DNA of 13,550 nucleotides, taken from a virus (Duplodnaviria; Heunggongvirae; Uroviricota; Caudoviricetes). The notes under the pieces are model-generated. The model was not told where the DNA came from, did no database searches, and was given only the letters and a program-made list of their open reading frames with translations. This document shows positions 1 through 12,566 of the stretch, one piece after another. Both the position numbers and the translations under genes were made by a program. The first letter of the stretch is position 1. Every line of letters begins with the position of its first letter. The stretch is from IMG/VR virus record IMGVR_UViG_2529292922_000026, positions 1 through 13,550 of that record; one strand, given 5' to 3'.

Positions 1-1191
1 ATGCATCTGCTTGTCCATCCAAATGGTTCTAAGTACTGGCGTTTGCAGTACCGTTATGAGGGAAAGCAAAAAATGCTGGCACTTGGGGTTTATCCTGAAA
101 TCACACTAGCGGATGCCAGAGTACGTCGTGACGAGACGCGTAAGCTGCTTGCGAATGGCGTCGATCCGGGAGACAAAAAGAAAAATGATAAGGTTGAACA
201 GAGTAAAGCACGAACCTTTAAAGAAGTCGCGATTGAGTGGCATGGCACCAATAAAAAGTGGTCTGAAGATCACGCCCATCGTGTGCTAAAAAGTCTTGAA
301 GATAATCTTTTTGCAGCGCTTGGTGAACGTAATATCGCTGAGTTAAAAACTCGAGATTTATTAGCACCTATTAAGGCCGTAGAAATGTCTGGACGTCTTG
401 AAGTGGCCGCTCGTCTTCAGCAGCGCACTACAGCCATCATGCGCTATGCAGTGCAAAGTGGGTTAATTGATTATAACCCGGCACAAGAGATGGCTGGGGC
501 GGTTGCTTCCTGTAATCGACAACATCGTCCCGCGCTTGAATTAAAGCGCATCCCTGAGTTGCTTACAAAAATAGATAGCTATACTGGTAGGCCGCTAACC
601 CGATGGGCGATAGAACTCACTTTGCTGATCTTTATTCGGTCCAGTGAGCTGCGTTTTGCTCGTTGGTCAGAGATCGATTTCGAAGCGTCTATATGGACTA
701 TCCCACCGGAGCGGGAGCCTATTCCTGGAGTGAAACATTCCCATAGAGGCTCAAAAATGCGTACAACGCATCTAGTGCCTCTTTCAACGCAAGCTCTTGC
801 AATTTTAAAGCAGATAAAACAGTTTTATGGGGCCCATGACTTGATATTTATTGGTGATCACGATTCGCACAAACCCATGAGTGAGAATACGGTAAATAGT
901 GCGTTACGGGTCATGGGGTATGATACAAAAGTAGAGGTTTGTGGTCATGGCTTTCGAACAATGGCCTGTAGTTCATTGGTCGAATCAGGTCTGTGGTCTC
1001 GTGATGCTGTTGAACGTCAGATGAGCCACATGGCGCGAAATTCAGTGAGGGCCGCGTATATCCATAAAGCAGAGCATCTGGAAGAACGGCGATTGATGCT
1101 ACAGTGGTGGGCCGATTTTCTGGATGTAAACAGAGAAAGGTTTATCAGTCCATTTGAATATGCAAAGATTAATAATCCATTAAAACAGTAA
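1..1191 (+). CDS. P4-type tyrosine integrase, 5'-partial (ORF is open to the window edge, so the true start probably lies upstream)
   Basis: 396-aa ORF. N-terminal region (LLVHPNGSKYWRLQYRYEGK...LALGVYPEITLADAR) and C-terminal region (HGFRTMACSSL...RQMSHMARNSVRAAYIHKAEHLEERRLMLQWWADFL) match the architecture I recall for P4/CP4-57-type integrases. Confidence 0.85.
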   Translation: MHLLVHPNGSKYWRLQYRYEGKQKMLALGVYPEITLADARVRRDETRKLLANGVDPGDKKKNDKVEQSKARTFKEVAIEWHGTNKKWSEDHAHRVLKSLEDNLFAALGERNIAELKTRDLLAPIKAVEMSGRLEVAARLQQRTTAIMRYAVQSGLIDYNPAQEMAGAVASCNRQHRPALELKRIPELLTKIDSYTGRPLTRWAIELTLLIFIRSSELRFARWSEIDFEASIWTIPPEREPIPGVKHSHRGSKMRTTHLVPLSTQALAILKQIKQFYGAHDLIFIGDHDSHKPMSENTVNSALRVMGYDTKVEVCGHGFRTMACSSLVESGLWSRDAVERQMSHMARNSVRAAYIHKAEHLEERRLMLQWWADFLDVNRERFISPFEYAKINNPLKQ

Positions 1192-1195
1192 TCAT

Positions 1196-1222
1196 CCCGG
1201 GCAAATGCCCGGGAATTATTCT
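1196..1222 (+). terminator. Possible weak intrinsic terminator after the integrase
   Basis: CCCGGGC-AAAT-GCCCGGG perfect 7-bp stem directly after the TAA stop, followed by a moderately U-rich tail (AATTATTCT). Confidence 0.35.
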
Positions 1223-1591
1223 AGGATTATTTTCTTTGTTAAAAAAGACAAACGGTATTAACTGATGTATTTACTATTTACCGCTCCCTGCAGGGGGGAT
1301 TATTAGAATCCGCGGTTATTCATTATTTATATACATTCAATAAAAAAGTAACCTCATAAAAAATCCTGTACTCACAGGGTGATGCGGGATAACTGACGTA
1401 AGGAGTGCTGCAGGGATTTGATGGTCCCTTGTGCTGATATGAATACGGATATTTTATACAGAATACTTTTCAGTACAAGCGACTGTATTACAGTCTGCCA
1501 TATATGATTACCTGTGATCAGGAAGAATAAGTGGCTGAGGTTTCAAACTGTCTGCCGGTATATTCCTCTCTCCCTTAAAAACCATAACAGG

Positions 1592-5276
<3,685 letters not shown>

Positions 5277-5280
<4 letters not shown>

Positions 5281-5603
5281 CGACGTTAACTCAATGCCAG
5301 CAGCAGGTGCTGGATATGCTGATTTCTTATCAGAAAGAACGTGGCTTCCCGCCAACCAATCAGGAGGTGGCAACCATGCTGGGATACCGTTCAGTGAATG
5401 CAGCGGTGGAGCATCTTCGCGCACTGGAGAAAAAAGGCGTCATCACGATAAAGCGTGGCGTGGCCCGGGGCATCACGCTTCATACCGCGGTGAAGGACGA
5501 CGACAGCGAGGCGGTCGGGATTATCCGCTCACTGCTTGCCGGTGAGGAAAACGCCAGGCTGCGTGCAACCCACTGGTTACATAAGAGGGGCCTGAAAGTA
5601 TGA
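5277..5603 (+). CDS. LexA N-terminal DNA-binding-domain-like protein (winged HTH) lacking the S24 peptidase domain
   Basis: 108 aa. Residues 1-70 (LTQCQQQVLDMLISYQKERGFPPTNQEVATMLGYRSVNAAVEHLRALEKKGVITIKRGVARGI) align by eye with the LexA N-terminal domain ([63 protein letters not shown]). ATGA overlaps at both ends. Confidence 0.65.
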
Positions 5604-5989
5604 AGCTGATCCTGCCTTTCCCGCCCAGCGTGAACACGTACTGGCGACACCCCAACAAAGGGGCGTTTGCAGGTAAGAGCCTGATAAGCGCGGCGGGGCG
5701 AAAATTTCAGAGCGCGGCGTGCGCAGCAATAGTTGAACAGTTACGTCGTCTGCCGAAACCAACGTCGGCACCTGCTTCAGTGGAGATCGTGTTGTTTCCT
5801 CCGGATAACAGGATCCGCGATCTGGACAACTATAACAAGGCGCTGTTTGACGCCCTGACCCACGCGGGGGTGTGGGAAGACGACAGTCAGGTGAAAAGAA
5901 TGCTGGTGGAGTGGGGACCGGTTATCCCGGAAGGGAAGGTCGAGATCACTATCAGTAAGTACGAGAAAACGGCGGGTGCAGCTGCCTGA
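5600..5989 (+). CDS. rusA: Holliday-junction resolvase RusA
   Basis: 129 aa with the family motifs PPSVNTYW...DLDNYNKALFDALTHAGVWEDDSQV, the size and position of rusA in lambdoid nin regions. Confidence 0.85.
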   Translation: MKLILPFPPSVNTYWRHPNKGAFAGKSLISAAGRKFQSAACAAIVEQLRRLPKPTSAPASVEIVLFPPDNRIRDLDNYNKALFDALTHAGVWEDDSQVKRMLVEWGPVIPEGKVEITISKYEKTAGAAA

Positions 5990-6008
5990 TTAAGAGGAGA
6001 AACGAAGT

Positions 6009-6818
6009 ATGAATAATCTGATGGTCATTGATGGTATTGAAGTTCGTCGTGATGCTTATGGGCGTTACAGCCTGAACGATCTGCATCGCGCAGCAGTAGC
6101 ATCTGGTGCAAATGCCAGAACCAAGGAGCCAGGAAAGTTTCTTTCCAGCCAACAAACTGTTGAGCTTGTTCATGAATTAACCAACACCCAGAATTTGGGT
6201 GTTGACCCGGTGAGTGTGATTCATGGGGGAAATGAACGGGGAACGTATGTCTGTAAGGAACTGGTGTATGCCTATGCAATGTGGATCAGCCCGTCATTCC
6301 ATCTGAAGGTGATCCGTACTTTCGATATGGTAACCAGCGCGCCGGAAAAGTTATCCGGACAGGCTGCTGACAAGATGCAGGCTGGCGTGATCCTGCTGGA
6401 CTTTATGCGCCGGGAGTTAAATCTGTCTAACTCTTCAGTGCTTGGTGCCTGTCAGAAACTCCAGGAGGCTGTTGGCTTACCGAATCTGGCACCGCGCTAT
6501 GCCATTGATGCTCCTGCTGACGCGCCTGATGGCTCAAGCCGCCCGACACTGTCACTGAGTGCACTGCTGAAGCAGTATGGTATCCGCCTGACAGCTAATC
6601 AGGCATATCACCAGATGGCGAAGCTGGGGATCGTTGAACAACGTGAACGATACAGCCGTACCGCGATTAACAACATCAAAAAATTCTGGTCGCTGACGGC
6701 GAAAGGCTGCATGTTCGGCAAGAACATCACCAGTCCCGCAAATCCGCGCGAGACGCAGCCGCATTTCTTCGAATCCCGATTCCCTGAGCTGTTAAAGCTA
6801 CTCGATACCGTTCATTGA
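6009..6818 (+). CDS. KilA-N domain protein (Roi/antirepressor-like)
   Basis: 269 aa; N-terminus (MVIDGIEVRRDAYGRYSLNDLHRAAVASG) resembles the KilA-N DNA-binding domain; strong RBS GAGGAG; position between rusA and Q matches where roi-like genes sit. Confidence 0.5.
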   Translation: MNNLMVIDGIEVRRDAYGRYSLNDLHRAAVASGANARTKEPGKFLSSQQTVELVHELTNTQNLGVDPVSVIHGGNERGTYVCKELVYAYAMWISPSFHLKVIRTFDMVTSAPEKLSGQAADKMQAGVILLDFMRRELNLSNSSVLGACQKLQEAVGLPNLAPRYAIDAPADAPDGSSRPTLSLSALLKQYGIRLTANQAYHQMAKLGIVEQRERYSRTAINNIKKFWSLTAKGCMFGKNITSPANPRETQPHFFESRFPELLKLLDTVH

Positions 6819-6825
6819 GGTGACC

Positions 6826-6913
6826 GTGAGAGCACTACTGACCCCTGAAATTGCCCCGCGTATGGGGATCGTATTGTTCAGGCCAGGTTCAGAGCTGATG
6901 CCCCTGTTTATGC
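6826..6913 (+). pseudogene. 5' fragment of the DUF968 (YdfU-like) gene, separated from the gene body by the IS50-like insertion
   Basis: Frame open from GTG 6826 (RBS GAGG) or ATG 6862 up to the IS end. After removing the IS and one repeat copy the frame joins seamlessly to the ORF at 8468 (...PGSELMPLFM|QGRVLLEPEPE...). Confidence 0.5.
6906..6913. repeat. Direct repeat GTTTATGC flanking the IS50-like element (left copy)
   Basis: Perfect 8-bp repeat immediately outside both IS termini (left 6906-6913, right 8464-8471), consistent with a target-site duplication; 9 bp is expected for this family, so a boundary may be off by one. Confidence 0.6.
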
Positions 6914-8463
6914 CTGTCTCTTATACACAAATCCCCACCCGGGGATTTGTGATGTCTGTCAGTCTGCTTTAGGGGGACTCTTTCCATCCGGTAGTTTCCT
7001 TCCTCCCCGGCAGCGATTTTTTGAACTTTTTCCTCACCCGTTGATCTTCTCTTATATTTCATTTTCTTCGGGTCTGTTATGGTACTTTCTGATTGTTATT
7101 CATGGGCTAACGAGCAGTTTGGACATGCCCGTCTCGGTGATCCGCGTCGTACACGACGCCTTGTGTCACTGGCCTCTTCTCTCGCTCAGCATGCAGGTCT
7201 TTCTATTGTGAAATCATCCCAGTCCACTGCTCAGGTTGAAGGTGCGTACCGCCTGATACGTAACCCGTCTGTGTCCCCGCAAGCCATTGCCGAAGCCGGA
7301 TTTACCGCCACTGTAAGGGCATGTGAGGCTCATCCGCTGCTCCTCGCGCTGGAAGACACCACCACCATTAACTTCAGTCACAGTACGGCATCTGATGACC
7401 TGGGGAATACCACCACTAACCCGAAGACGCGCGGGCTGCTGGCTCACTCTGTCCTGATGTACGCCCCCGACAGCGCCCTGCCAGTCGGTCTTATCGAACA
7501 GCAGCGCTGGAGTCGTGCCACGGACACCTACGGTGTTAAGCACCAGCGAAAAGAACGTCCCTATGAAGAAAAAGAAAGTTACCGCTGGCAGCAGGCTTCG
7601 GAGCGCATGGCCGAACGGCTGGGGGAGATACAGAAACGGGTAATCACTGTCTGTGACCGGGAAGCGGATATCTGGCATTACCTGCATTATAAAGTCAGCC
7701 ACGGGCAGCGCTTCGTGGTGCGTGCAGCACAGAATCGCCGGCTGGAAGAAGCACCCGGCAAGCTCTTCGAACTGCCGGAAGTCCTGGCAACCGCGGGAAG
7801 CCACACGCTGAATGTGATGCAAAAAGGCGGGCGGGCAGCCCGCCAGGCCCGGATGTTCATCAGTTACAGCGAAGTCAGCATAAAAAATCCCGACAACAGC
7901 GGCCAGGCGCTCCCGCTCACGTATGTCTGTTGCCGGGAGCAGGCAGAGGACGGCGCCTGCTGGCATCTGCTGACGTCAGAAAAAGTGGCGAGTGCCGCCG
8001 ATGCGCGACGTATCGTCAGCCATTACGAGCGACGCTGGCTGATAGAGGAATACCACAAGGCGTGGAAAAGTGGTGGTACATGTGTGGAATCGCTGCGAAT
8101 GCAGACCCGGGATAACCTCGAGCGCATGGTGGTTATCAAGGCGTTTATCGCGGTGCGGGTGCTGGGCCTGCGGCAGGGCGGTATCAGTGAAGAAACACAA
8201 AATGACAGCTGTGAGAAAATACTGACGCCGACAGAGTGGAAACTGCTGTGGGTTAAGCTGGAAGGAAAACCGCTTCCGTCACAGATGCCGACACTGAAAT
8301 GGGCCTGTCTGAAACTGGCGAAACTGGGGCGATGGCATGACAGCAAACGCACCGGTCGCCCCGGTTGGGTAGTCATGTGGGATGGCTGGTTCAGACTTCA
8401 GGATATGGTTGAGGGTTACCTGGTGATGAAGTCTCTTGATCAGGAGATCTGATCAAGAGACAG
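6914..8463 (+). mobile_element. IS50-like insertion sequence (IS4 family), about 1550 bp
   Basis: Left end CTGTCTCTTATACACAAAT (6914-6932) resembles the Tn5 outside/mosaic end. Right end reverse complement CTGTCTCTTGATCAGATCT (8445-8463) is identical to the IS50 inside end as I recall it. Contains one transposase ORF. Confidence 0.8.
7079..8452 (+). CDS. IS4-family transposase (Tn5/IS50 Tnp-like)
   Basis: 457 aa; N-terminus (ARLGDPRRTRRLV...EGAYRLIRNP) and C-terminal YREK-type signature (SHYERRWLIEEYHKAWKSG) parallel Tn5 transposase; stop lies within the terminal repeat as in IS50. Confidence 0.9.
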   Translation: MVLSDCYSWANEQFGHARLGDPRRTRRLVSLASSLAQHAGLSIVKSSQSTAQVEGAYRLIRNPSVSPQAIAEAGFTATVRACEAHPLLLALEDTTTINFSHSTASDDLGNTTTNPKTRGLLAHSVLMYAPDSALPVGLIEQQRWSRATDTYGVKHQRKERPYEEKESYRWQQASERMAERLGEIQKRVITVCDREADIWHYLHYKVSHGQRFVVRAAQNRRLEEAPGKLFELPEVLATAGSHTLNVMQKGGRAARQARMFISYSEVSIKNPDNSGQALPLTYVCCREQAEDGACWHLLTSEKVASAADARRIVSHYERRWLIEEYHKAWKSGGTCVESLRMQTRDNLERMVVIKAFIAVRVLGLRQGGISEETQNDSCEKILTPTEWKLLWVKLEGKPLPSQMPTLKWACLKLAKLGRWHDSKRTGRPGWVVMWDGWFRLQDMVEGYLVMKSLDQEI

Positions 8464-8471: not shown

Positions 8472-9373
8472 AGGGGCGTGTCCTGCTGGAGCCAGAGCCG
8501 GAACGTTATTCATCTTTCGCCAGTGGTGCCGTTCCGGCGGCATCACAACCGCTGGCGGATGATCCTGCCGTTCGGACCGTGTTCCGCAATGAGGCAGTGA
8601 TCCGTCGTGCTGGTGGCGTGGAATGTCTTGAAAGCTGGTTACTTCGTGAAAAAGGTTGCCAGTGGCCTCATTCCGACTGGCACAGCGAGAACATGACCAC
8701 AATGCGACACACGCCGGGCGCAATCCGTCTGTGCTGGCACTGCGATAACCAGCTGCGCGATCAGTTCACGGAACGGCTGGAATCAATGGCAACGGATAAC
8801 TGTACCCGCTGGGTGTTGTCTGTTGTGCGTCGGGATCTCGGTTTTGATGACAGTCACGTTGTGACAATGCCGGAACTGTGCTGGTGGCTGATTCGTAATG
8901 ACCTGGCGGATGCCTTACCGGAAAGTGCAGCCCGTAAGGCACTGAGATTACCGAAGCCTGTTGTGCCGTCTGTCACCCGGGAAAGTGACCTTGTGCCTTC
9001 GGTTCCTGCCACCAGCATCATCCAGGATAAAGCGAAAAAGGTGCTGGCGCTGAAAGTGGATCCGGAGTCGCCGGAGTCTTTTATGTTACGCCCAAAACGT
9101 CGCCGCTGGGTTAATGAAAAGTACACGCGCTGGGTTAAGACACAGCCGTGTGCATGTTGTGGAAAGCCCGCTGATGATCCCCACCACCTGATAGGCCACG
9201 GTCAGTGTGGAATGGGTACAAAAGCGCATGACCTTTTTGTGTTGCCTTTGTGCAGAAAGCATCACGACGAGCTGCATGCGGATACCGTGGCATTTGAAGA
9301 GAAGTATGGCTCTCAGCTGGAGCTGATATTTCGTTTTATCGATCGTGCGCTGGCAATTGGCGTACTGGCGTAA
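8468..9373 (+). CDS. DUF968 family protein (YdfU-like), N-terminally truncated by IS insertion
   Basis: 301 aa; Cys/His-rich C-terminal region (CACCGKPADDPHHLIGHGQCG...LCRKHHDELH); located immediately upstream of the Q-like gene as in Qin-type prophages; its ATG sits in the flanking direct repeat. Confidence 0.6.
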   Translation: MQGRVLLEPEPERYSSFASGAVPAASQPLADDPAVRTVFRNEAVIRRAGGVECLESWLLREKGCQWPHSDWHSENMTTMRHTPGAIRLCWHCDNQLRDQFTERLESMATDNCTRWVLSVVRRDLGFDDSHVVTMPELCWWLIRNDLADALPESAARKALRLPKPVVPSVTRESDLVPSVPATSIIQDKAKKVLALKVDPESPESFMLRPKRRRWVNEKYTRWVKTQPCACCGKPADDPHHLIGHGQCGMGTKAHDLFVLPLCRKHHDELHADTVAFEEKYGSQLELIFRFIDRALAIGVLA

Positions 9374-9386
9374 GTGGAGAACGAGC

Positions 9387-10139
9387 ATGAACCTTGAAGC
9401 CTTACCGAAATATTACTCCCCGAAATCTCCAAAACTGAGCGATGACGCACCGGCGACAGGCTCTGGTGGTTTAACAATTACGGATGTGATGGCTGCGCAG
9501 GGGATGGTGCAGTCAAAAGCACCGCTTGGGTTTGCTTTATTCCTGGCAAAAGTTGGTGTTCAGGATCCTCAGTTTGCGATTGAAGGTCTGCTCAATTACG
9601 CGATGGCACTGGATAACCCGACATTGAATAAATTGAGTGAAGAAACCCGGCTACAGATCATTCCTTACCTTGTGAATTTTGCCTTTGCTGATTATTCCAG
9701 GTCTGCGGCAAGTAAGGCTCGCTGTGAGCATTGTGCTGGTACTGGATTTCATAATGTATTGCGCGAGGTGGTGAAACACTCCAGAAGCGGGGAATCTGTT
9801 ATTAAGGAAGAGTGGGTGAAGGAACTATGTCAGCATTGTCATGGTAAGGGAGAAGTCAGCACAGCATGCAGAGGGTGCAAGGGTAAAGGTATTGTCCTGG
9901 ATGAAAAAAGAACCCGGCTTCATGGCACGCCTGTTTATAAGGTTTGTGGGCGTTGCAATGGAAACCGGTTTAGCCGTTTACCAACCACACTGGCGCGGCT
10001 TCATGTCCAGAAGCTGGTACCAGACCTGACGGATTATCAGTGGTACAAAGGATATGCAGATGTCATTGATAAACTGGTTACAAAGTGCTGGCAGGAAGAA
10101 GCATATGCAGAGATACAATTGAGAAAGGTGACAAGATAA
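9387..10139 (+). CDS. Late-gene antiterminator Q-like protein (QuuQ-like) with four CxxCxGxG repeats
   Basis: 250 aa from ATG 9387 (RBS GGAGA 7 nt upstream), preferred over track start 9345, which overlaps the upstream gene. Position immediately upstream of a candidate promoter plus intrinsic terminator and tRNAs. Motifs CEHCAGTG, CQHCHGKG, CRGCKGKG, CGRCNGN. Confidence 0.6.
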   Translation: MNLEALPKYYSPKSPKLSDDAPATGSGGLTITDVMAAQGMVQSKAPLGFALFLAKVGVQDPQFAIEGLLNYAMALDNPTLNKLSEETRLQIIPYLVNFAFADYSRSAASKARCEHCAGTGFHNVLREVVKHSRSGESVIKEEWVKELCQHCHGKGEVSTACRGCKGKGIVLDEKRTRLHGTPVYKVCGRCNGNRFSRLPTTLARLHVQKLVPDLTDYQWYKGYADVIDKLVTKCWQEEAYAEIQLRKVTR

Positions 10140-10170: not shown

Positions 10171-10199
10171 TTGCATTTTTCAAAAAATATGGATAAGAT
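10171..10199 (+). promoter_or_regulatory. Candidate late promoter pR' (and overlapping Q-utilisation region)
   Basis: TTGCAT, 17-bp spacer, TAAGAT, about 30 bp after the Q stop and about 45 bp before an intrinsic terminator; position-based inference. Confidence 0.3.
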
Positions 10200-10245
10200 T
10201 TTCCCAACGATGGGCTTTGTATGTCTACCGTTGATAAGATTTAAG

Positions 10246-10270
10246 AACCCGCCGATGCGCGGGTTTTTTT
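10246..10270 (+). terminator. Intrinsic terminator, candidate tR'
   Basis: AACCCGC ... GCGGGTT stem followed by T7 (GAACCCGCCGATGCGCGGGTTTTTTTG). Confidence 0.6.
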
Positions 10271-10450
10271 GTACCCAGAATCCTGTGAGCTATACGGAAA
10301 GTACACAGAAAGGAAGGTGCGACCACAATTAATAACAAAATCTTAAAAATTGCACATGGCACTATTAGTTTTCTAAATATTGTGTATTTTTTGTATTGCA
10401 GGATGACCCTGTAACGAAGTTTGCGTAACAGCATTTTGCTCTACGAGTTT

Positions 10451-10479
10451 GCCAGCCTCCCCCAGTGGCTGGCTTTTTT
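10451..10479 (+). terminator. Second intrinsic terminator
   Basis: GCCAGCC-tcccccagt-GGCTGGC perfect 7-bp stem followed by TTTTTT. Confidence 0.5.
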
Positions 10480-10490
10480 ATGTCTGTAGC

Positions 10491-10601
10491 GTCAAAGCAG
10501 CAATGTCGCTGGGGCGTCGTGCAATTGGCGTTGAGCTGGAGACTGAACGTTTTGAGCAGACGGTCAGGGAAGTTCAGGATTTAGTCAGTCAGAACGGATG
10601 A
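10491..10601 (+). pseudogene. C-terminal remnant of a DNA methyltransferase
   Basis: Frame reads ...VKAAMSLGRRAIGVELETERFEQTVREVQDLVSQNG*. The GRRxIGxE segment looks like the C-terminal motif I associate with N4/N6 DNA methyltransferases; no upstream catalytic portion is present. Confidence 0.35.
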
Positions 10602-10641: not shown

Positions 10642-10717
10642 GGCCCTTTAGCTCAGTGGTGAGAGCGAGCGACTCATAATCGCCAGGTCGCTGGTTCAAA
10701 TCCAGCAAGGGCCACCA
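10642..10717 (+). tRNA. tRNA with anticodon CAU (Ile2/lysidine-type, ileX/ileZ-like; would be called Met by anticodon)
   Basis: 76 nt, acceptor stem GGCCCTT/AAGGGCC, anticodon loop CTCATAA, ends CCA; close to E. coli ileX as I recall it. Confidence 0.85.
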
Positions 10718-10724
10718 TCACATA

Positions 10725-10801
10725 CCGCCATTAGCTCATCGGGATAGAGCGTCAGCCTTCGAAGCTGGCTGTGCGGGGTTCAAGTCCCCGATGGCGGTCC
10801 A
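10725..10801 (+). tRNA. tRNA-Arg (anticodon UCG)
   Basis: 77 nt, acceptor CCGCCAT/ATGGCGG, anticodon stem TCAGC/GCTGG with loop CTTCGAA, T-arm CGGGG-TTCAAGT-CCCCG, CCA end. Confidence 0.85.
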
Positions 10802-10814
10802 TTATCAGCATCAT

Positions 10815-10891
10815 GCGTTGTTAGCTCAGTCGGACAGAGCAATTGCCTTCTAAGCAATCGGTCACTGGTTCGAATCCAGTACAACGCGCCA
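10815..10891 (+). tRNA. tRNA-Arg (anticodon UCU)
   Basis: 77 nt, acceptor GCGTTGT/ACAACGC, anticodon stem ATTGC/GCAAT with loop CTTCTAA, CCA end. Confidence 0.85.
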
Positions 10892-10904: not shown

Positions 10905-10929
10905 GGCTCGCTTTTGCGGGCCTTTTTTT
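10905..10929 (+). terminator. Intrinsic terminator after the tRNA cluster
   Basis: GGCTCGC-tttt-GCGGGCC (one G-U pair) followed by T7. Confidence 0.5.
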
Positions 10930-10981
10930 GTATCTGCGTTACACCATTAACTAATAAATCGAGTGCTTATCAGGAGGCTAT

Positions 10982-11206
10982 GTGAAAAAACTGATGGTGA
11001 CGATTGGTCCGTTCGAAACAGAAGTTAGTTTTCGTGTTGTTCAGGGGGAGAGTGTACTTGTTGAAGATGTATTTCATGGAAAATCAACAGGTCCTTATGT
11101 AAAAGAATATCTTATCGACGCCACGGATGAAAATATTGAGGTGGTGTACGATTCCGTCAATCACCCTGATTTGATCATTAAGGCAAAATTGAAGCCACTT
11201 TATTGA
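10982..11206 (+). CDS. Hypothetical small protein (74 aa), no recognised domain
   Basis: ORF with AGGAGG 4 nt upstream of GTG 10982 (alternative ATG at 10994); sits where toxin cargo lies in Stx phages. Confidence 0.5.
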   Translation: MKKLMVTIGPFETEVSFRVVQGESVLVEDVFHGKSTGPYVKEYLIDATDENIEVVYDSVNHPDLIIKAKLKPLY

Positions 11207-11258
11207 TCTGACCGGGAGCAATCATAAAATATCTCTGGGTACCCACAAGGAGATAAAT

Positions 11259-11489
11259 ATGTTTGTTTCTGAAGTGTTAATGGAAGATAAGGACAACAAA
11301 GGATGGGTTAAAGGTTGGGCTGTGGTAAGAAGCTCGCCCTGGCATCTTGTTGGGGTTTTTGCGACAGAGGAAGACGCAGAAACGGAAGCAAGAAAGATGG
11401 GAGATAAGTACGAGGTTCACTATGGCTCGCATCGAACAGGAAGTGATGATTTTGTCTGGGGGAGTAACAGTCGTTTAACCCCAGAATAA
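11259..11489 (+). CDS. Hypothetical small protein (76 aa), no recognised domain
   Basis: ATG with AAGGAG 6 nt upstream; 3 of its 4 Arg codons are AGA, AGA and CGA; followed by a terminator. Confidence 0.55.
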   Translation: MFVSEVLMEDKDNKGWVKGWAVVRSSPWHLVGVFATEEDAETEARKMGDKYEVHYGSHRTGSDDFVWGSNSRLTPE

Positions 11490-11500
11490 TCCCGTAACTG

Positions 11501-11525
11501 AGGTCGCTATTGGCGGCCTTTTTTG
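11501..11525 (+). terminator. Intrinsic terminator after the small-ORF pair
   Basis: AGGTCGC-tattg-GCGGCCT (one G-U pair) followed by a T-run. Confidence 0.45.
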
Positions 11526-11656
11526 TATCCGCGCCACGCCCGGCGCATATCAACCACAGAGCCTTTCGGGGGTGAGCTTACGGAGTGGTCAGTGTGACTT
11601 TCTCTGTGGGCAGATCGCTCCCGGGCGTTGGCTCACCCACCCAAAGGAACGTCACG

Positions 11657-12252: not shown

Positions 12253-12566
12253 TTTTTTTATTTGCTGTTTATTAAAAATACTACTGCATGGTGAATCCCC
12301 CTGTGCGGAGGGGCGATCAGCAACCAGGTATATGGGATAATCGCGGATTCAGGTGCTGATACTGAATTCACCGGGAGGCACCCGGCACCATGCTTTGCCG
12401 CAAAAGTGTTGTTTCTGTTTTTCTCAAACTATCATCGTTATCCCTTTATTTCCGGCTGCGCATGGCGTGGCCTTTTTTTTACGACCAGCCACTGGCAGAT
12501 GGCCATCCTGTAATTTGATTCCGGTTCCGGCTTTTTAACTCTGTTCCTGTACACGGGAGAAATTCG

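What the first reader, a model, noticed from the sequence alone, without database searches (positions are those of the whole stretch)
10931..11530. Two uncharacterised small ORFs occupy the slot where Stx phages carry stxAB
In Stx phages the block Q, pR'/tR', tRNA trio, cargo, nanS-p, lysis genes carries stxA/stxB as cargo. Here the same slot holds two small ORFs (74 and 76 aa), each with its own strong RBS and the pair followed by an intrinsic terminator. I recognise no domain in either and neither has a signal peptide. Cargo at this position is transcribed from the late promoter at induction, and this slot is a hotspot for toxins and other morons, so this pair is a prime candidate for an undescribed phage-carried function (toxin/antitoxin, anti-defence or host-modulating factor).
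Basis: partly seen in the sequence, partly recalled or inferred. Interest (0 to 1): 0.75.

Follow-up and report, generated by a model that had tools for sequence, protein, structure and literature searches.

The report
Small phage cassette in stx slot
Two real but uncharacterised small phage genes sit exactly where Shiga-toxin phages carry stxAB; the second is a free-standing copy of a small domain that other bacteria fuse to TIR, protease and nuclease proteins in defence-gene neighbourhoods, which makes it a testable lead for phage-host conflict rather than a toxin.

Summary
ORF1 (10982-11206, 74 aa) and ORF2 (11259-11489, 76 aa) are real genes with RBSs and a terminator. They form a ~595-bp insertion (10939-11533) that starts at the same breakpoint after the tRNA trio as stx2A in an Stx2a phage.

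Neither matches a named family. ORF1 is a confidently modelled small beta-sandwich. Its relatives usually follow the spanin gene Rz, and one paralogue type occurs in 23% of complete E. coli genomes. ORF2 belongs to a proteobacteria-wide family of ~300 clusters.

ORF1 lies directly upstream of ORF2 in 86 related loci, usually after the lysis genes. But each gene also occurs alone, and they recombine apart. They are neighbours, not an obligate pair.

New here: ORF2 looks like a self-contained moron. It has an invariant TAnnnT -10 element, a hairpin that pairs with its own Shine-Dalgarno sequence, and a terminator. Its domain recurs as the C-terminal module of TIR, trypsin-like protease and Mrr-nuclease proteins found among defence genes.

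My best reading, which is inferred, is a binding module used in phage-host or phage-phage conflict. A toxin-antitoxin pair or a secreted toxin is not supported. Interest is moderate.

The parts
10642..10891 (+). tRNA trio (Met/Ile2-CAU, Arg-UCG, Arg-UCU) that defines the left side of the cargo slot
   Evidence: ARAGORN; Rfam tRNA 56-72 bits; the same trio precedes stx2A in LC567840
10905..10938 (+). Resident intrinsic terminator plus 'GTATCTGCG'. This is the last sequence shared with Stx2a and cargo-free prophages and marks the left junction of the cassette.
   Evidence: Terminator scan; -13.8 kcal/mol, z -6.1; three-way alignment breaks after this point
10939..11533 (+). The inserted cassette as a whole (~595 bp). 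It is absent from O157 prophages, which go straight from the tRNA terminator to TerB. It is bracketed by two similar terminator+GTATC(T/C)GCG copies.
   Evidence: Alignment with NZ_CP028629; present in 110 of 5426 complete E. coli genomes at >=95% identity
10972..10977 (+). ORF1 Shine-Dalgarno sequence AGGAGG, 4 nt before the GTG start
   Evidence: Read from the sequence
10982..11206 (+). ORF1, 74 aa: a small soluble all-beta (six-strand sandwich) protein of PHROG 2571. It is a member of an Enterobacterales phage family usually encoded right after Rz.
11203..11230 (+). Putative sigma-70 promoter of ORF2: TTGATC (11203-11208, overlapping the ORF1 stop codon), 16-nt spacer, TAAAAT (11225-11230)
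   Evidence: Consensus scan. T1, A2 and T6 of the -10 hexamer are invariant in 44 distinct leaders. A TTG/TTT hexamer lies 16-18 nt upstream, matching 3.36 of 6 positions against 2.53 in shuffles. No transcript data.
11231..11254 (+). Leader hairpin: anti-SD arm AUCUCU (11231-11236), palindrome GGGTACCC (11237-11244), SD arm GGAGAU (11249-11254)
   Evidence: -7.5 kcal/mol in the window. Across 44 leaders 91.9% of cells are paired against 86.6% in shuffles (0/500) and 43-66% in slid controls; compensatory UA<->CG and GC<->UA changes occur. The SD is fully paired in 30 of 44 MFE folds. The motif is followed by an ORF2 gene in 38 of 40 IMG/VR matches.
11259..11489 (+). ORF2, 76 aa: a free-standing copy of a ~55-aa alpha/beta domain (motif GW..GW.V.R..PWH..G...(helix)...G..Y...YGSHR.GSDDF), PHROG 4280
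   Evidence: The same domain is C-terminal in TIR, Trypsin_2 and Mrr_cat proteins. The AlphaFold model is only low confidence (pLDDT 54.7).
11500..11533 (+). The cassette's own intrinsic terminator plus 'GTATCCGCG' (right junction). Homology with cargo-free prophages resumes here.
   Evidence: A terminator-like hairpin with a T-run, identified by eye, follows the ORF2 homologue in most of the related enterobacterial loci listed.

Best explanation
The 600 bases are a mobile accessory cassette of lambdoid phages that has landed in the stx slot. It holds two separable genes.

ORF1 is a small cytoplasmic beta-sandwich protein. It has no promoter of its own and lies downstream of several terminators, so it should be made only when Q antiterminates late transcription.

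ORF2 is a self-contained moron. It has a conserved sigma-70-type promoter in the ORF1-ORF2 spacer, a leader whose 5' arm pairs with the ORF2 Shine-Dalgarno sequence, the ORF, and its own terminator. By the geometry, the anti-SD arm lies upstream of the predicted transcription start. The hairpin would therefore mute ORF2 translation on long read-through late RNA but not on the short promoter-derived RNA.

The ORF2 protein is a non-enzymatic binding module. The same domain serves as the C-terminal (sensor, autoinhibitory or docking) module of TIR, trypsin-like protease and Mrr-nuclease proteins encoded among defence genes. I infer that the free-standing phage copy binds the same ligand or partner in trans. 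That would put it in phage-host or phage-phage conflict. It could act as a decoy or antitoxin-like inhibitor of such effectors (slightly favoured), or as a lysogen-expressed factor that sequesters a component of an invading phage.

Shown: gene reality, cassette borders, conserved adjacency, leader and promoter conservation, domain fusions and their gene neighbourhoods. Inferred: promoter activity, the two-transcript logic, binding, and the direction of the conflict role.
For: Cassette borders, and the same breakpoint as stx2A. The ORF1->ORF2 adjacency is kept in 86 loci (54 distinct pairs), including Xenorhabdus, Yersinia, Scandinavium and Pseudocitrobacter. Moron features of ORF2: TAnnnT is invariant in 44 distinct leaders, 27-32 nt before the ATG in 42 of them under the best-scoring assignment, with a TTG/TTT hexamer 16-18 nt upstream; a terminator-like hairpin with a T-run follows ORF2 in most of the listed loci; and the Pseudomonas phage homologue lies on the opposite strand inside a tail-gene cluster. 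Hairpin: paired cells and covariation exceed the shuffled and slid controls, half the sequences use G-U at one pair, which fits RNA rather than DNA pairing, and the SD is paired in most folds. The motif is specific to ORF2. Domain fusions: of 20 long family members scanned, 7 are clean Trypsin_2 fusions, 2 are TIR, 1 is Mrr_cat and 1 carries DUF6538; an eighth Trypsin_2 hit (P0166) is weak and sits in what looks like a chimeric gene call; Bordetella petrii L029 is a further Trypsin_2 fusion. Their effector parts match PADLOC TIR (ThsB, PDC-S66, SAVED-TIR) and retron/Lamassu-type protease models. Their neighbours are Mrr plus an AAA_13 ATPase, MmeI restriction-modification plus HEPN_AbiV, ThsB_TIR, and a PDC-S59-like gene. 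Free-standing homologues elsewhere lie next to a Panacea antitoxin-domain gene and a Gp49/HTH toxin-antitoxin pair. At least four terminators lie between the candidate pR' and ORF2, so read-through needs Q.
Against: There is no experimental or transcript evidence for the promoter, the hairpin or any phenotype. The promoter's -35 element is weak in most lineages, and RNAalifold on the MAFFT alignment predicted no consensus structure. The hairpin in the window alone is not exceptional (z -1.3). The ORF2 structure could not be modelled with confidence, and fold search gave nothing, so 'binding module' rests on size, the lack of invariant catalytic-type residues, and domain architecture. None of the fusion proteins recovered came from Enterobacterales, so a host target for a decoy in E. 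coli is not shown. Seven of the 20 long family members have no recognisable partner domain. ORF1 has no functional lead beyond its fold and position.
Confidence: 0.4

Rival explanations
1. Late-stage or lysis-associated accessory function. ORF1, and perhaps ORF2, would tune lysis timing, envelope disruption or the lysis-to-packaging transition, and the stx-slot copy is simply a displaced lysis-module appendage.
Against: There are no membrane segments, signal peptides or lipoboxes. In the window the pair is about 5 kb upstream of the lysis genes. ORF2 homologues in Pseudomonas phages lie in tail clusters on the opposite strand, and others lie in non-phage contexts. The family is absent from many lambdoid phages, so it is dispensable for lysis. 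The XepA match is no better than dozens of unrelated beta-sandwiches.
Confidence: 0.2
2. Two unrelated 'filler' accessory genes with separate and possibly host-physiology roles. Their adjacency would reflect shared recombination junctions (terminators) rather than function, and the domain fusions would reflect a generic oligomerisation or stability module with no role in conflict.
For: Each gene occurs without the other. Identities are discordant, for example ORF1 89% against ORF2 53%, and ORF2 93% against ORF1 39%. Similar terminator sequences flank the cassette.
Against: Adjacency and order are kept across genera down to ~57% ORF2 identity. Divergences of the two genes are correlated (r 0.74, Mantel p 0.001). 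The partner domains of the fused forms are drawn from the classic defence-effector repertoire, and their neighbours are defence genes.
Confidence: 0.2
3. Type II toxin-antitoxin pair.
For: Two adjacent small genes on one strand in a prophage.
Against: There is no hit to any TA family in Pfam, NCBIfam or PADLOC. The candidate promoter lies between the genes, not upstream of both. The spacer is 52 nt, with no overlap. Each gene is common without the other. ORF1 is a plain beta-sandwich.
Confidence: 0.04
4. Secreted toxin or virulence cargo analogous to StxAB.
For: Same slot as stx, and the carriers are EHEC lineages O145, O26 and O103.
Against: There are no signal peptides and no similarity to AB5 or other toxins. 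The family is widespread in non-pathogen phages such as mEp237, Xenorhabdus prophages and environmental proteobacteria.
Confidence: 0.02

Closest known systems
Phage morons (promoter-gene-terminator units inserted between late genes of lambdoid and HK97-like phages; concept recalled from the Hendrix/Juhala literature, not re-read here)
   Same: The cassette shows a presence/absence polymorphism between otherwise collinear prophages. ORF2 has its own terminator and a conserved sigma-70-like promoter directly upstream. It sits in the late operon. Pseudomonas homologues lie in opposite orientation inside tail clusters.
   Different: The cassette carries a second gene (ORF1) with no promoter of its own. 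The ORF2 leader holds a conserved SD-pairing hairpin and a palindrome, which are not general features of morons. Expression in lysogens is untested.
stxAB cassette of Stx-converting phages
   Same: Identical insertion point after the tRNA trio and its terminator. Two small adjacent genes on the late strand, upstream of nanS-p and the lysis genes.
   Different: No sequence or fold similarity. No signal peptides. This cassette's usual home is after the lysis genes rather than in this slot.
Small non-enzymatic modules attached to varied defence effectors: effector-associated domains (EADs; Kaur et al. 2020, PMC7159879), the promiscuous Panacea antitoxin domain, and the C-terminal sensor/antitoxin domain of fused toxin-antitoxin proteins such as CapRel (the last two from memory)
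   Same: The ORF2 domain is small, shows no catalytic signature, and is joined to unrelated effector domains (TIR, trypsin-like peptidase, Mrr nuclease) in defence-rich neighbourhoods. It also occurs free-standing. PMC7159879 describes EADs as small domains without enzymatic features fused to such effectors.
   Different: EADs are defined by a second copy on a core NTPase, vWA or GTPase component. No such copy was seen here. No motif of the ORF2 family occurs in that paper's held supplement. No sequence link to Panacea or CapRel was found.
Anti-CRISPR (acr-aca) type counter-defence operons of temperate phages (from memory)
   Same: A small, fast-evolving, unannotated protein with its own promoter embedded among late genes, and a palindrome at the promoter.
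XepA/YomS beta-sandwich proteins of Bacillus prophage lysis cassettes
   Same: ORF1-family genes are small beta-sandwich proteins encoded at the end of a lysis cassette.

Membership tests
Moron (autonomous promoter-gene-terminator insert in a phage late operon) | Present in some and absent from other, otherwise collinear, phage genomes with sharp junctions | tested here: met
   595-bp indel relative to O157 prophages; the junction is shared with the stx2A insertion; alternative slot contents
Moron (autonomous promoter-gene-terminator insert in a phage late operon) | Own intrinsic terminator downstream | tested here: met
   11500-11525; a terminator-like hairpin with T-run follows ORF2 in most of the related loci listed
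Moron (autonomous promoter-gene-terminator insert in a phage late operon) | Own promoter, active in the lysogen | tested here: inconclusive
   A consensus match TTGATC-16-TAAAAT lies upstream of ORF2, and TAnnnT is invariant in 44 leaders. None was found for ORF1. Activity cannot be tested with these tools.
Type II toxin-antitoxin system | At least one partner belongs to a known toxin or antitoxin family | tested here: not met
   No Pfam, NCBIfam or PADLOC hit above threshold
Type II toxin-antitoxin system | The genes are obligately co-inherited | tested here: not met
   ORF1 type in 1244 E. coli genomes against 127 for ORF2; ORF2 occurs alone outside Enterobacterales; discordant identities
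AB5 / Shiga-like secreted toxin cargo | Signal peptides and similarity to the A or B subunit | tested here: not met
   No N-terminal hydrophobic segment in either sequence (read by eye; no predictor run); no PDB or Pfam similarity
Effector-associated domains (EAD1-11, PMC7159879) | Small non-enzymatic domain fused to diverse effector domains | tested here: met
   C-terminal to TIR_2, Trypsin_2 and Mrr_cat
Effector-associated domains (EAD1-11, PMC7159879) | A second copy of the same domain on a core NTPase/vWA/GTPase component in the same operon or genome | tested here: not met
   No large NTPase carrying the domain appeared among the 150 best family members. Neighbours in L115-L117 and L029 lack it. 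Only four neighbourhoods were examined.
Effector-associated domains (EAD1-11, PMC7159879) | Sequence membership in one of the published EAD alignments | not testable with these tools
   The alignments are not available here; the motif search of the held supplement found nothing
Known defence or anti-defence protein families (PADLOC-DB 2.0) | Profile match of ORF1 or ORF2 | tested here: not met
   Only a chance-level Cas7c hit for ORF2 (E 0.017) and none for ORF1
PHROG 2571 (ORF1) and PHROG 4280 (ORF2), both 'unknown function' | Significant profile match | tested here: met
   E 1.9e-26 and 4.2e-41
Pfam DUF7336 | Score above the gathering threshold (25 bits) | tested here: not met
   16.8 bits over 24 residues; 5 of 14 family members match weakly, best E 0.0022

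The most novel reading that the evidence does not exclude
ORF2 would found an unnamed domain family (call it X) that is a widespread trigger-sensing or autoinhibitory module of single-chain abortive-infection effectors (TIR-X, protease-X, Mrr-X). Temperate phages would carry free X copies as trans-acting decoys or antitoxin mimics. Those copies would be expressed from a dedicated promoter, and the leader hairpin would silence translation only on late read-through RNA. This would give a new sensor domain, a new family of phage counter-defence (or exclusion) proteins, and a transcript-isoform-specific translational switch.
Probability: 0.2. Interest if true: 0.75.

Novelty: new member of a known kind. 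Interest (0 to 1): 0.5.

Why it matters
The stx slot is the best-known cargo site of pathogenic E. coli prophages, so it is useful to know what else travels there. These two genes are not toxins. ORF2 links a common, unannotated phage gene family to the effector repertoire of bacterial immunity (TIR, protease and nuclease fusions). That gives a concrete handle on an unnamed domain, and on a set of candidate single-gene defence proteins, that current defence catalogues miss. The conserved promoter, hairpin and palindrome upstream of ORF2 form a compact and easily mutated regulatory element. It could show how a moron is kept translatable in lysogens but muted during late transcription.

Tried and rejected
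- Megablast of the 600 bp against INPHARED phages found nothing. Protein-level tblastn was needed.
- The word-indexed protein search with ORF1 alone found only near-identical copies. A four-sequence profile was needed to recover the family.
- PDB sequence searches with both family profiles gave only chance-level hits: jacalin domain of nitrile-specifier protein E 0.56, 2lyy E 0.67, DamX SPOR E 6.3.
- RNAalifold on the MAFFT leader alignment predicted no structure. A hand-given structure and per-sequence folds were used instead.
- Rfam has no family at the ORF2 leader.
- The small gene downstream of Mrr-X was checked as a possible free X copy. It is not one.
- A conserved partner gene next to distant ORF2 homologues was sought and not found.
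- Literature searches by accession, locus tag, PHROG and DUF names found nothing. The 'mEp237' search was swamped by unrelated DOIs.
- Toxin-antitoxin and secreted-toxin readings were considered and rejected, as set out above.
Full report
**1. The observation**

The window holds two forward-strand ORFs at the stated place.
- ORF1 runs 10982-11206, starts with GTG and encodes 74 aa. AGGAGG lies 4 nt upstream.
- ORF2 runs 11259-11489, starts with ATG and encodes 76 aa. AAGGAG lies 6 nt upstream.

RefSeq annotates the same two CDS as hypothetical proteins in E. coli O145 RM9873-C1, which is 100% identical over the 600 bases. An intrinsic terminator follows at 11500-11525.

In order they are:
- a Q antiterminator at 9345-10139;
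- a methylase remnant;
- the Met/Ile-Arg-Arg tRNA trio at 10642-10891;
- the pair;
- TerB, DUF3927 and the nanS-p esterase.

In Stx2a phage LC567840 the same trio is followed by stx2A. A three-way alignment shows that the window, the Stx phage and a cargo-free O157 prophage are alike up to 'TATCTGCG' (window ~10938) and then diverge. The pair therefore sits at exactly the stx insertion point.

Compared with O157 prophages, the pair is a clean insertion of about 595 bp (10939-11533). It is bracketed by two similar copies of a terminator plus GTATC(T/C)GCG. Other prophages have this slot empty, or filled with DUF3927+IraM, TerB+DUF3927 or stx2AB.

**2. Are they genes, and of what kind?**

Neither protein passes threshold in Pfam, NCBIfam or PADLOC. 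Both belong to PHROG families of unknown function: 2571 for ORF1 and 4280 for ORF2.

*ORF1*
- It has a ~41% identical paralogue immediately after the spanin gene Rz in Stx1 and Stx2 phages. The same is true of the RefSeq O145 prophage that carries an identical copy of the cassette.
- A profile search gave 100 clusters, all from Enterobacterales and all unnamed.
- With 46 sequences, AlphaFold gave a confident six-strand all-beta model (pLDDT 89.2).

*ORF2*
- It has homologues in phage mEp237, Salmonella, Xenorhabdus, Yersinia, Citrobacter, Pseudomonas phages, Ralstonia, Azotobacter, Bordetella and alphaproteobacteria.
- An exhaustive profile search found 296 representative clusters.
- About a dozen residues are invariant, in the pattern W..PWH..G...G..Y..YGS.R.GSDDF. 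In distant members the His, Arg and Asp positions vary, which argues against catalysis.
- Its AlphaFold model is poor (pLDDT 54.7; predicted beta-beta-alpha-beta), and fold search was uninformative.

**3. Is it a pair?**

In mEp237 an ORF1 homologue (gp060) and an ORF2 homologue (gp061) lie in the same order, with a similar spacer and a terminator. There they sit after the lysis genes.

I searched 109 fetched loci that hold an ORF2 homologue with profiles of both families. An ORF1-family ORF lies directly upstream on the same strand in 86 of them (54 distinct pairs). These include Xenorhabdus, Yersinia, Scandinavium and Pseudocitrobacter.

The usual site is holin-endolysin-Rz, then ORF1-ORF2, then the small terminase gene. 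The EHEC-type site (tRNAs, pair, TerB) and a site between Q and the lysis genes are less common.

The two genes are nevertheless separable:
- The post-Rz ORF1 type is present in 1244 of 5426 complete E. coli genomes. ORF2 is present in only 127.
- ORF2 homologues outside Enterobacterales have no ORF1 and no other constant neighbour.
- Divergences of the two genes are correlated (r 0.74, Mantel p 0.001). Clear discordant cases still show recombination between them, for example ORF1 89% with ORF2 53%, and ORF2 93% with ORF1 39%.

I read them as habitual neighbours, not an obligate two-component system.

**4. A regulatory element in the spacer**

The 44 distinct ORF2 leaders share the following features:
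- An invariant TAnnnT element (TAAAAT, TAGCAT, TAACAT, TAGTAT or TAATCT), 27-32 nt before the ATG in 42 of the 44 under the best-scoring assignment.
- A hexamer starting with TTG or TTT, 16-18 nt further upstream. It matches 3.36 of 6 consensus positions against 2.53 in shuffles, and reaches >=4/6 in 19 of 44 against 14% expected.
- Directly after the TAnnnT element, the sequence ATCTCC-GGGTACCC-AAA-GGAGAT.

In the window the consensus scan finds TTGATC-16-TAAAAT at 11203-11230. The -35 hexamer overlaps the ORF1 stop codon.

The outer arms of that sequence pair, and the 3' arm is the ORF2 Shine-Dalgarno sequence. The evidence for pairing is as follows:
- On the alignment, 91.9% of cells form pairs. 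Shuffles give 86.6% (0 of 500 reach the observed value), and slid controls give 43-66%.
- Compensatory changes occur (UA<->CG at pair 18-42; GC<->UA at pair 25-28).
- One pair is a 23:21 mix of C-G and U-G, which fits RNA rather than DNA pairing.
- Minimum-free-energy folds pair all four SD bases in 30 of 44 leaders (mean -8.2 kcal/mol, mean z -2.0).

There are caveats. The window's hairpin alone is unremarkable (-7.5 kcal/mol, z -1.3), and RNAalifold gave no consensus on the MAFFT register.

The motif is specific to ORF2. Of 40 exact matches in IMG/VR, 38 are followed by an ORF2-family ORF. Rfam has no family there.

One geometric inference follows. If the -10 element is real, transcription starts near 11237. 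The anti-SD arm (11231-11236) would then be missing from the promoter-derived RNA but present on read-through late RNA. The hairpin would mute ORF2 only on the late polycistronic message. This is inference and needs 5'-end mapping. The role of the palindrome at +1 to +8 (GGGTACCC, or GGTTAACC or GAGTATTC in other lineages) remains unexplained.

Upstream, a candidate pR' (TTGCAT-17-TAAGAT, 10171-10199) is followed by terminators at 10243-10270, 10451-10478 and 10905-10930. No promoter-like site was found for ORF1. ORF1 should therefore depend on Q-mediated read-through.

**5. The functional lead**

Among the 150 best ORF2-family representatives, 25 are longer than 140 aa, and most of these carry the domain at the C-terminus. 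Pfam scans of 20 of them gave:
- Trypsin_2 peptidase in 7 (P0164, P0170, P0198, P0244, P0255, P0223, P0258);
- a weak Trypsin_2 fragment hit in P0166, which looks like a chimeric gene call;
- TIR_2 in 2 (P0129, P0135);
- Mrr_cat restriction endonuclease in 1 (P0193);
- DUF6538 in 1;
- nothing in 7.

The Bordetella petrii locus L029 is another Trypsin_2 fusion.

The effector parts match PADLOC models. The TIR proteins hit PDC-S66, ThsB and SAVED-TIR. The proteases hit the retron type XI RT-protease and LmuA.

Four neighbourhoods were examined, and all hold defence-type genes:
- TIR-X lies next to Mrr_cat and an AAA_13/SMC-like ATPase.
- Trypsin-X lies next to an MmeI-type restriction-modification gene and HEPN_AbiV.
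- Mrr-X lies on a contig that also holds ThsB_TIR and DACNV genes.
- The Bordetella protease-X is followed by a PDC-S59-like gene (E 3.7e-28).

Free-standing homologues outside Enterobacterales also lie among accessory genes:
- In Pseudomonas saxonica, one lies next to a SocA/Panacea antitoxin-domain gene inside a prophage tail cluster.
- In Azotobacter, one lies next to a Gp49/HTH toxin-antitoxin pair.
- In a Pseudomonas phage, one lies on the opposite strand to the tail genes.

The ORF2 domain is thus a small non-enzymatic module that evolution attaches to classic immune effectors. In such proteins the non-effector domain normally senses, docks or autoinhibits.

**6. Mechanism, with what is shown and what is inferred**

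Shown:
- a mobile two-gene cassette at the stx breakpoint;
- ORF1 as a small beta-sandwich of a lysis-linked family;
- ORF2 with a conserved promoter-like element, an SD-pairing leader and a terminator;
- the ORF2 domain fused to defence effectors.

Inferred:
- ORF2 is expressed from its own promoter, as a moron.
- The protein binds in trans the ligand or partner recognised by the fused forms.
- It therefore acts in conflict. It may be a decoy or antitoxin-like inhibitor of such effectors (slightly favoured), or a lysogen-expressed factor that sequesters a component of an invading phage.

I put 0.4 on this family of explanations. The main weaknesses are these:
- There are no expression or phenotype data.
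- There is no confident ORF2 structure.
- None of the X-fused effectors recovered came from E. coli or its relatives.
- ORF1 has no functional lead.

Rivals:
- a lysis or late-stage accessory role (0.2), based on position and on translational coupling of ORF1 to Rz;
- two unrelated filler genes whose adjacency reflects recombination at terminators (0.2);
- a toxin-antitoxin pair (0.04);
- a secreted toxin (0.02).

**7. Comparison with known systems**

The nearest known category is the phage moron. The cassette meets the presence/absence and terminator criteria. The promoter criterion is met only at the consensus and conservation level.

It resembles effector-associated domains (PMC7159879) in being a small non-enzymatic module on varied effectors. 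The defining second copy on a core NTPase was not found, so I do not file it as an EAD. It is not a member of any TA, AB5 toxin, PADLOC or named Pfam family.

**8. Verdict**

- It is not a toxin.
- It is not a toxin-antitoxin system.
- It is not an obligate pair.
- It is not special to the stx slot.
- It is a real, conserved, uncharacterised cassette, and its second gene has a credible link to immune-conflict biology.

Novelty: a new member of a known kind (moron cargo), carrying an unnamed domain family. Interest: 0.5.

Noticed in passing
window 12260-12429 (+): Strong Rfam match to the sRNA STnc100 (102 bits against a gathering score of 47, E 2e-22). It lies between DUF3927 and nanS-p and ends just before the terminator at 12454-12472. 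This is a further non-coding cargo element of the same late region.
   Followed up: no
window 1-8452: The prophage looks defective. An integrase (1-1191) is followed by a sulfatase gene fragment on the minus strand, an IS21 element (istA 2906-3928, istB 3925-4707), a Dam methylase, a LexA-DNA-binding-domain protein, RusA, KilA-N and a Tn5/IS4-type transposase (7079-8452). DUF968 and Q come next. No repressor or replication genes were seen, so Q-dependent expression of ORF1 may rely on another prophage.
   Followed up: partly
window 11455-11489: The ORF2 C-terminal tail (…FVWGSNSRLTPE, 76 aa) differs from the form found in most of the other related sequences examined (…FVWGGVTVV, 73 aa) by a 1-nt length difference in a G-run. 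Only one complete E. coli genome shares the window's version exactly. The tail lies outside the conserved domain.
   Followed up: yes
L001 19051-19275; L004 6001-6225: The post-Rz paralogue of ORF1 (WP_000735655.1 type) carries four conserved cysteines (GKC, VEC, KC, PVC) that the window's ORF1 and the mEp237 type lack. It is present in 1244 of 5426 complete E. coli genomes, almost always without ORF2.
   Followed up: partly
window 11237-11244 and the equivalent position in 44 related leaders: An 8-nt palindrome (GGGTACCC; GGTTAACC in the Yersinia-type lineage; GAGTATTC in one Xenorhabdus) sits at the predicted +1 to +8 of the ORF2 promoter. It keeps its symmetry through double changes. Whether it is an operator or an RNA element is unresolved.
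   Followed up: partly
window 10171-10270: Candidate late promoter pR' (TTGCAT-17-TAAGAT, 10171-10199) and a strong terminator (10243-10270, -14 kcal/mol) lie just downstream of Q. The layout would give a short terminated transcript, as described for Stx phages (PMC7547250 abstract). It was not detected by the consensus promoter scan.
   Followed up: no
L029 4996-7758 (Bordetella petrii NSA17): A two-gene unit: a trypsin-like protease with a C-terminal ORF2-like domain, followed by a 467-aa protein matching the PADLOC candidate PDC-S59 (E 3.7e-28). This is a possible uncatalogued defence system variant.
   Followed up: partly
window 10905-10938 vs 11500-11533; L002 4240-4275 and other loci: The terminators that follow ORF2 in many phages, and the resident terminator after the tRNA trio, are similar in sequence (GCCTCGC..GCGGGGCTTTTTT(A/G)T). 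This similarity could provide the short homology by which the cassette moves between late-region sites.
   Followed up: no
window 10449-10601: A remnant of the DNA methylase gene that is full-length (about 1 kb) between Q and the tRNAs in Stx2a phage LC567840 and in E. coli U13A. Only the C-terminal ~50 codons survive here.
   Followed up: no
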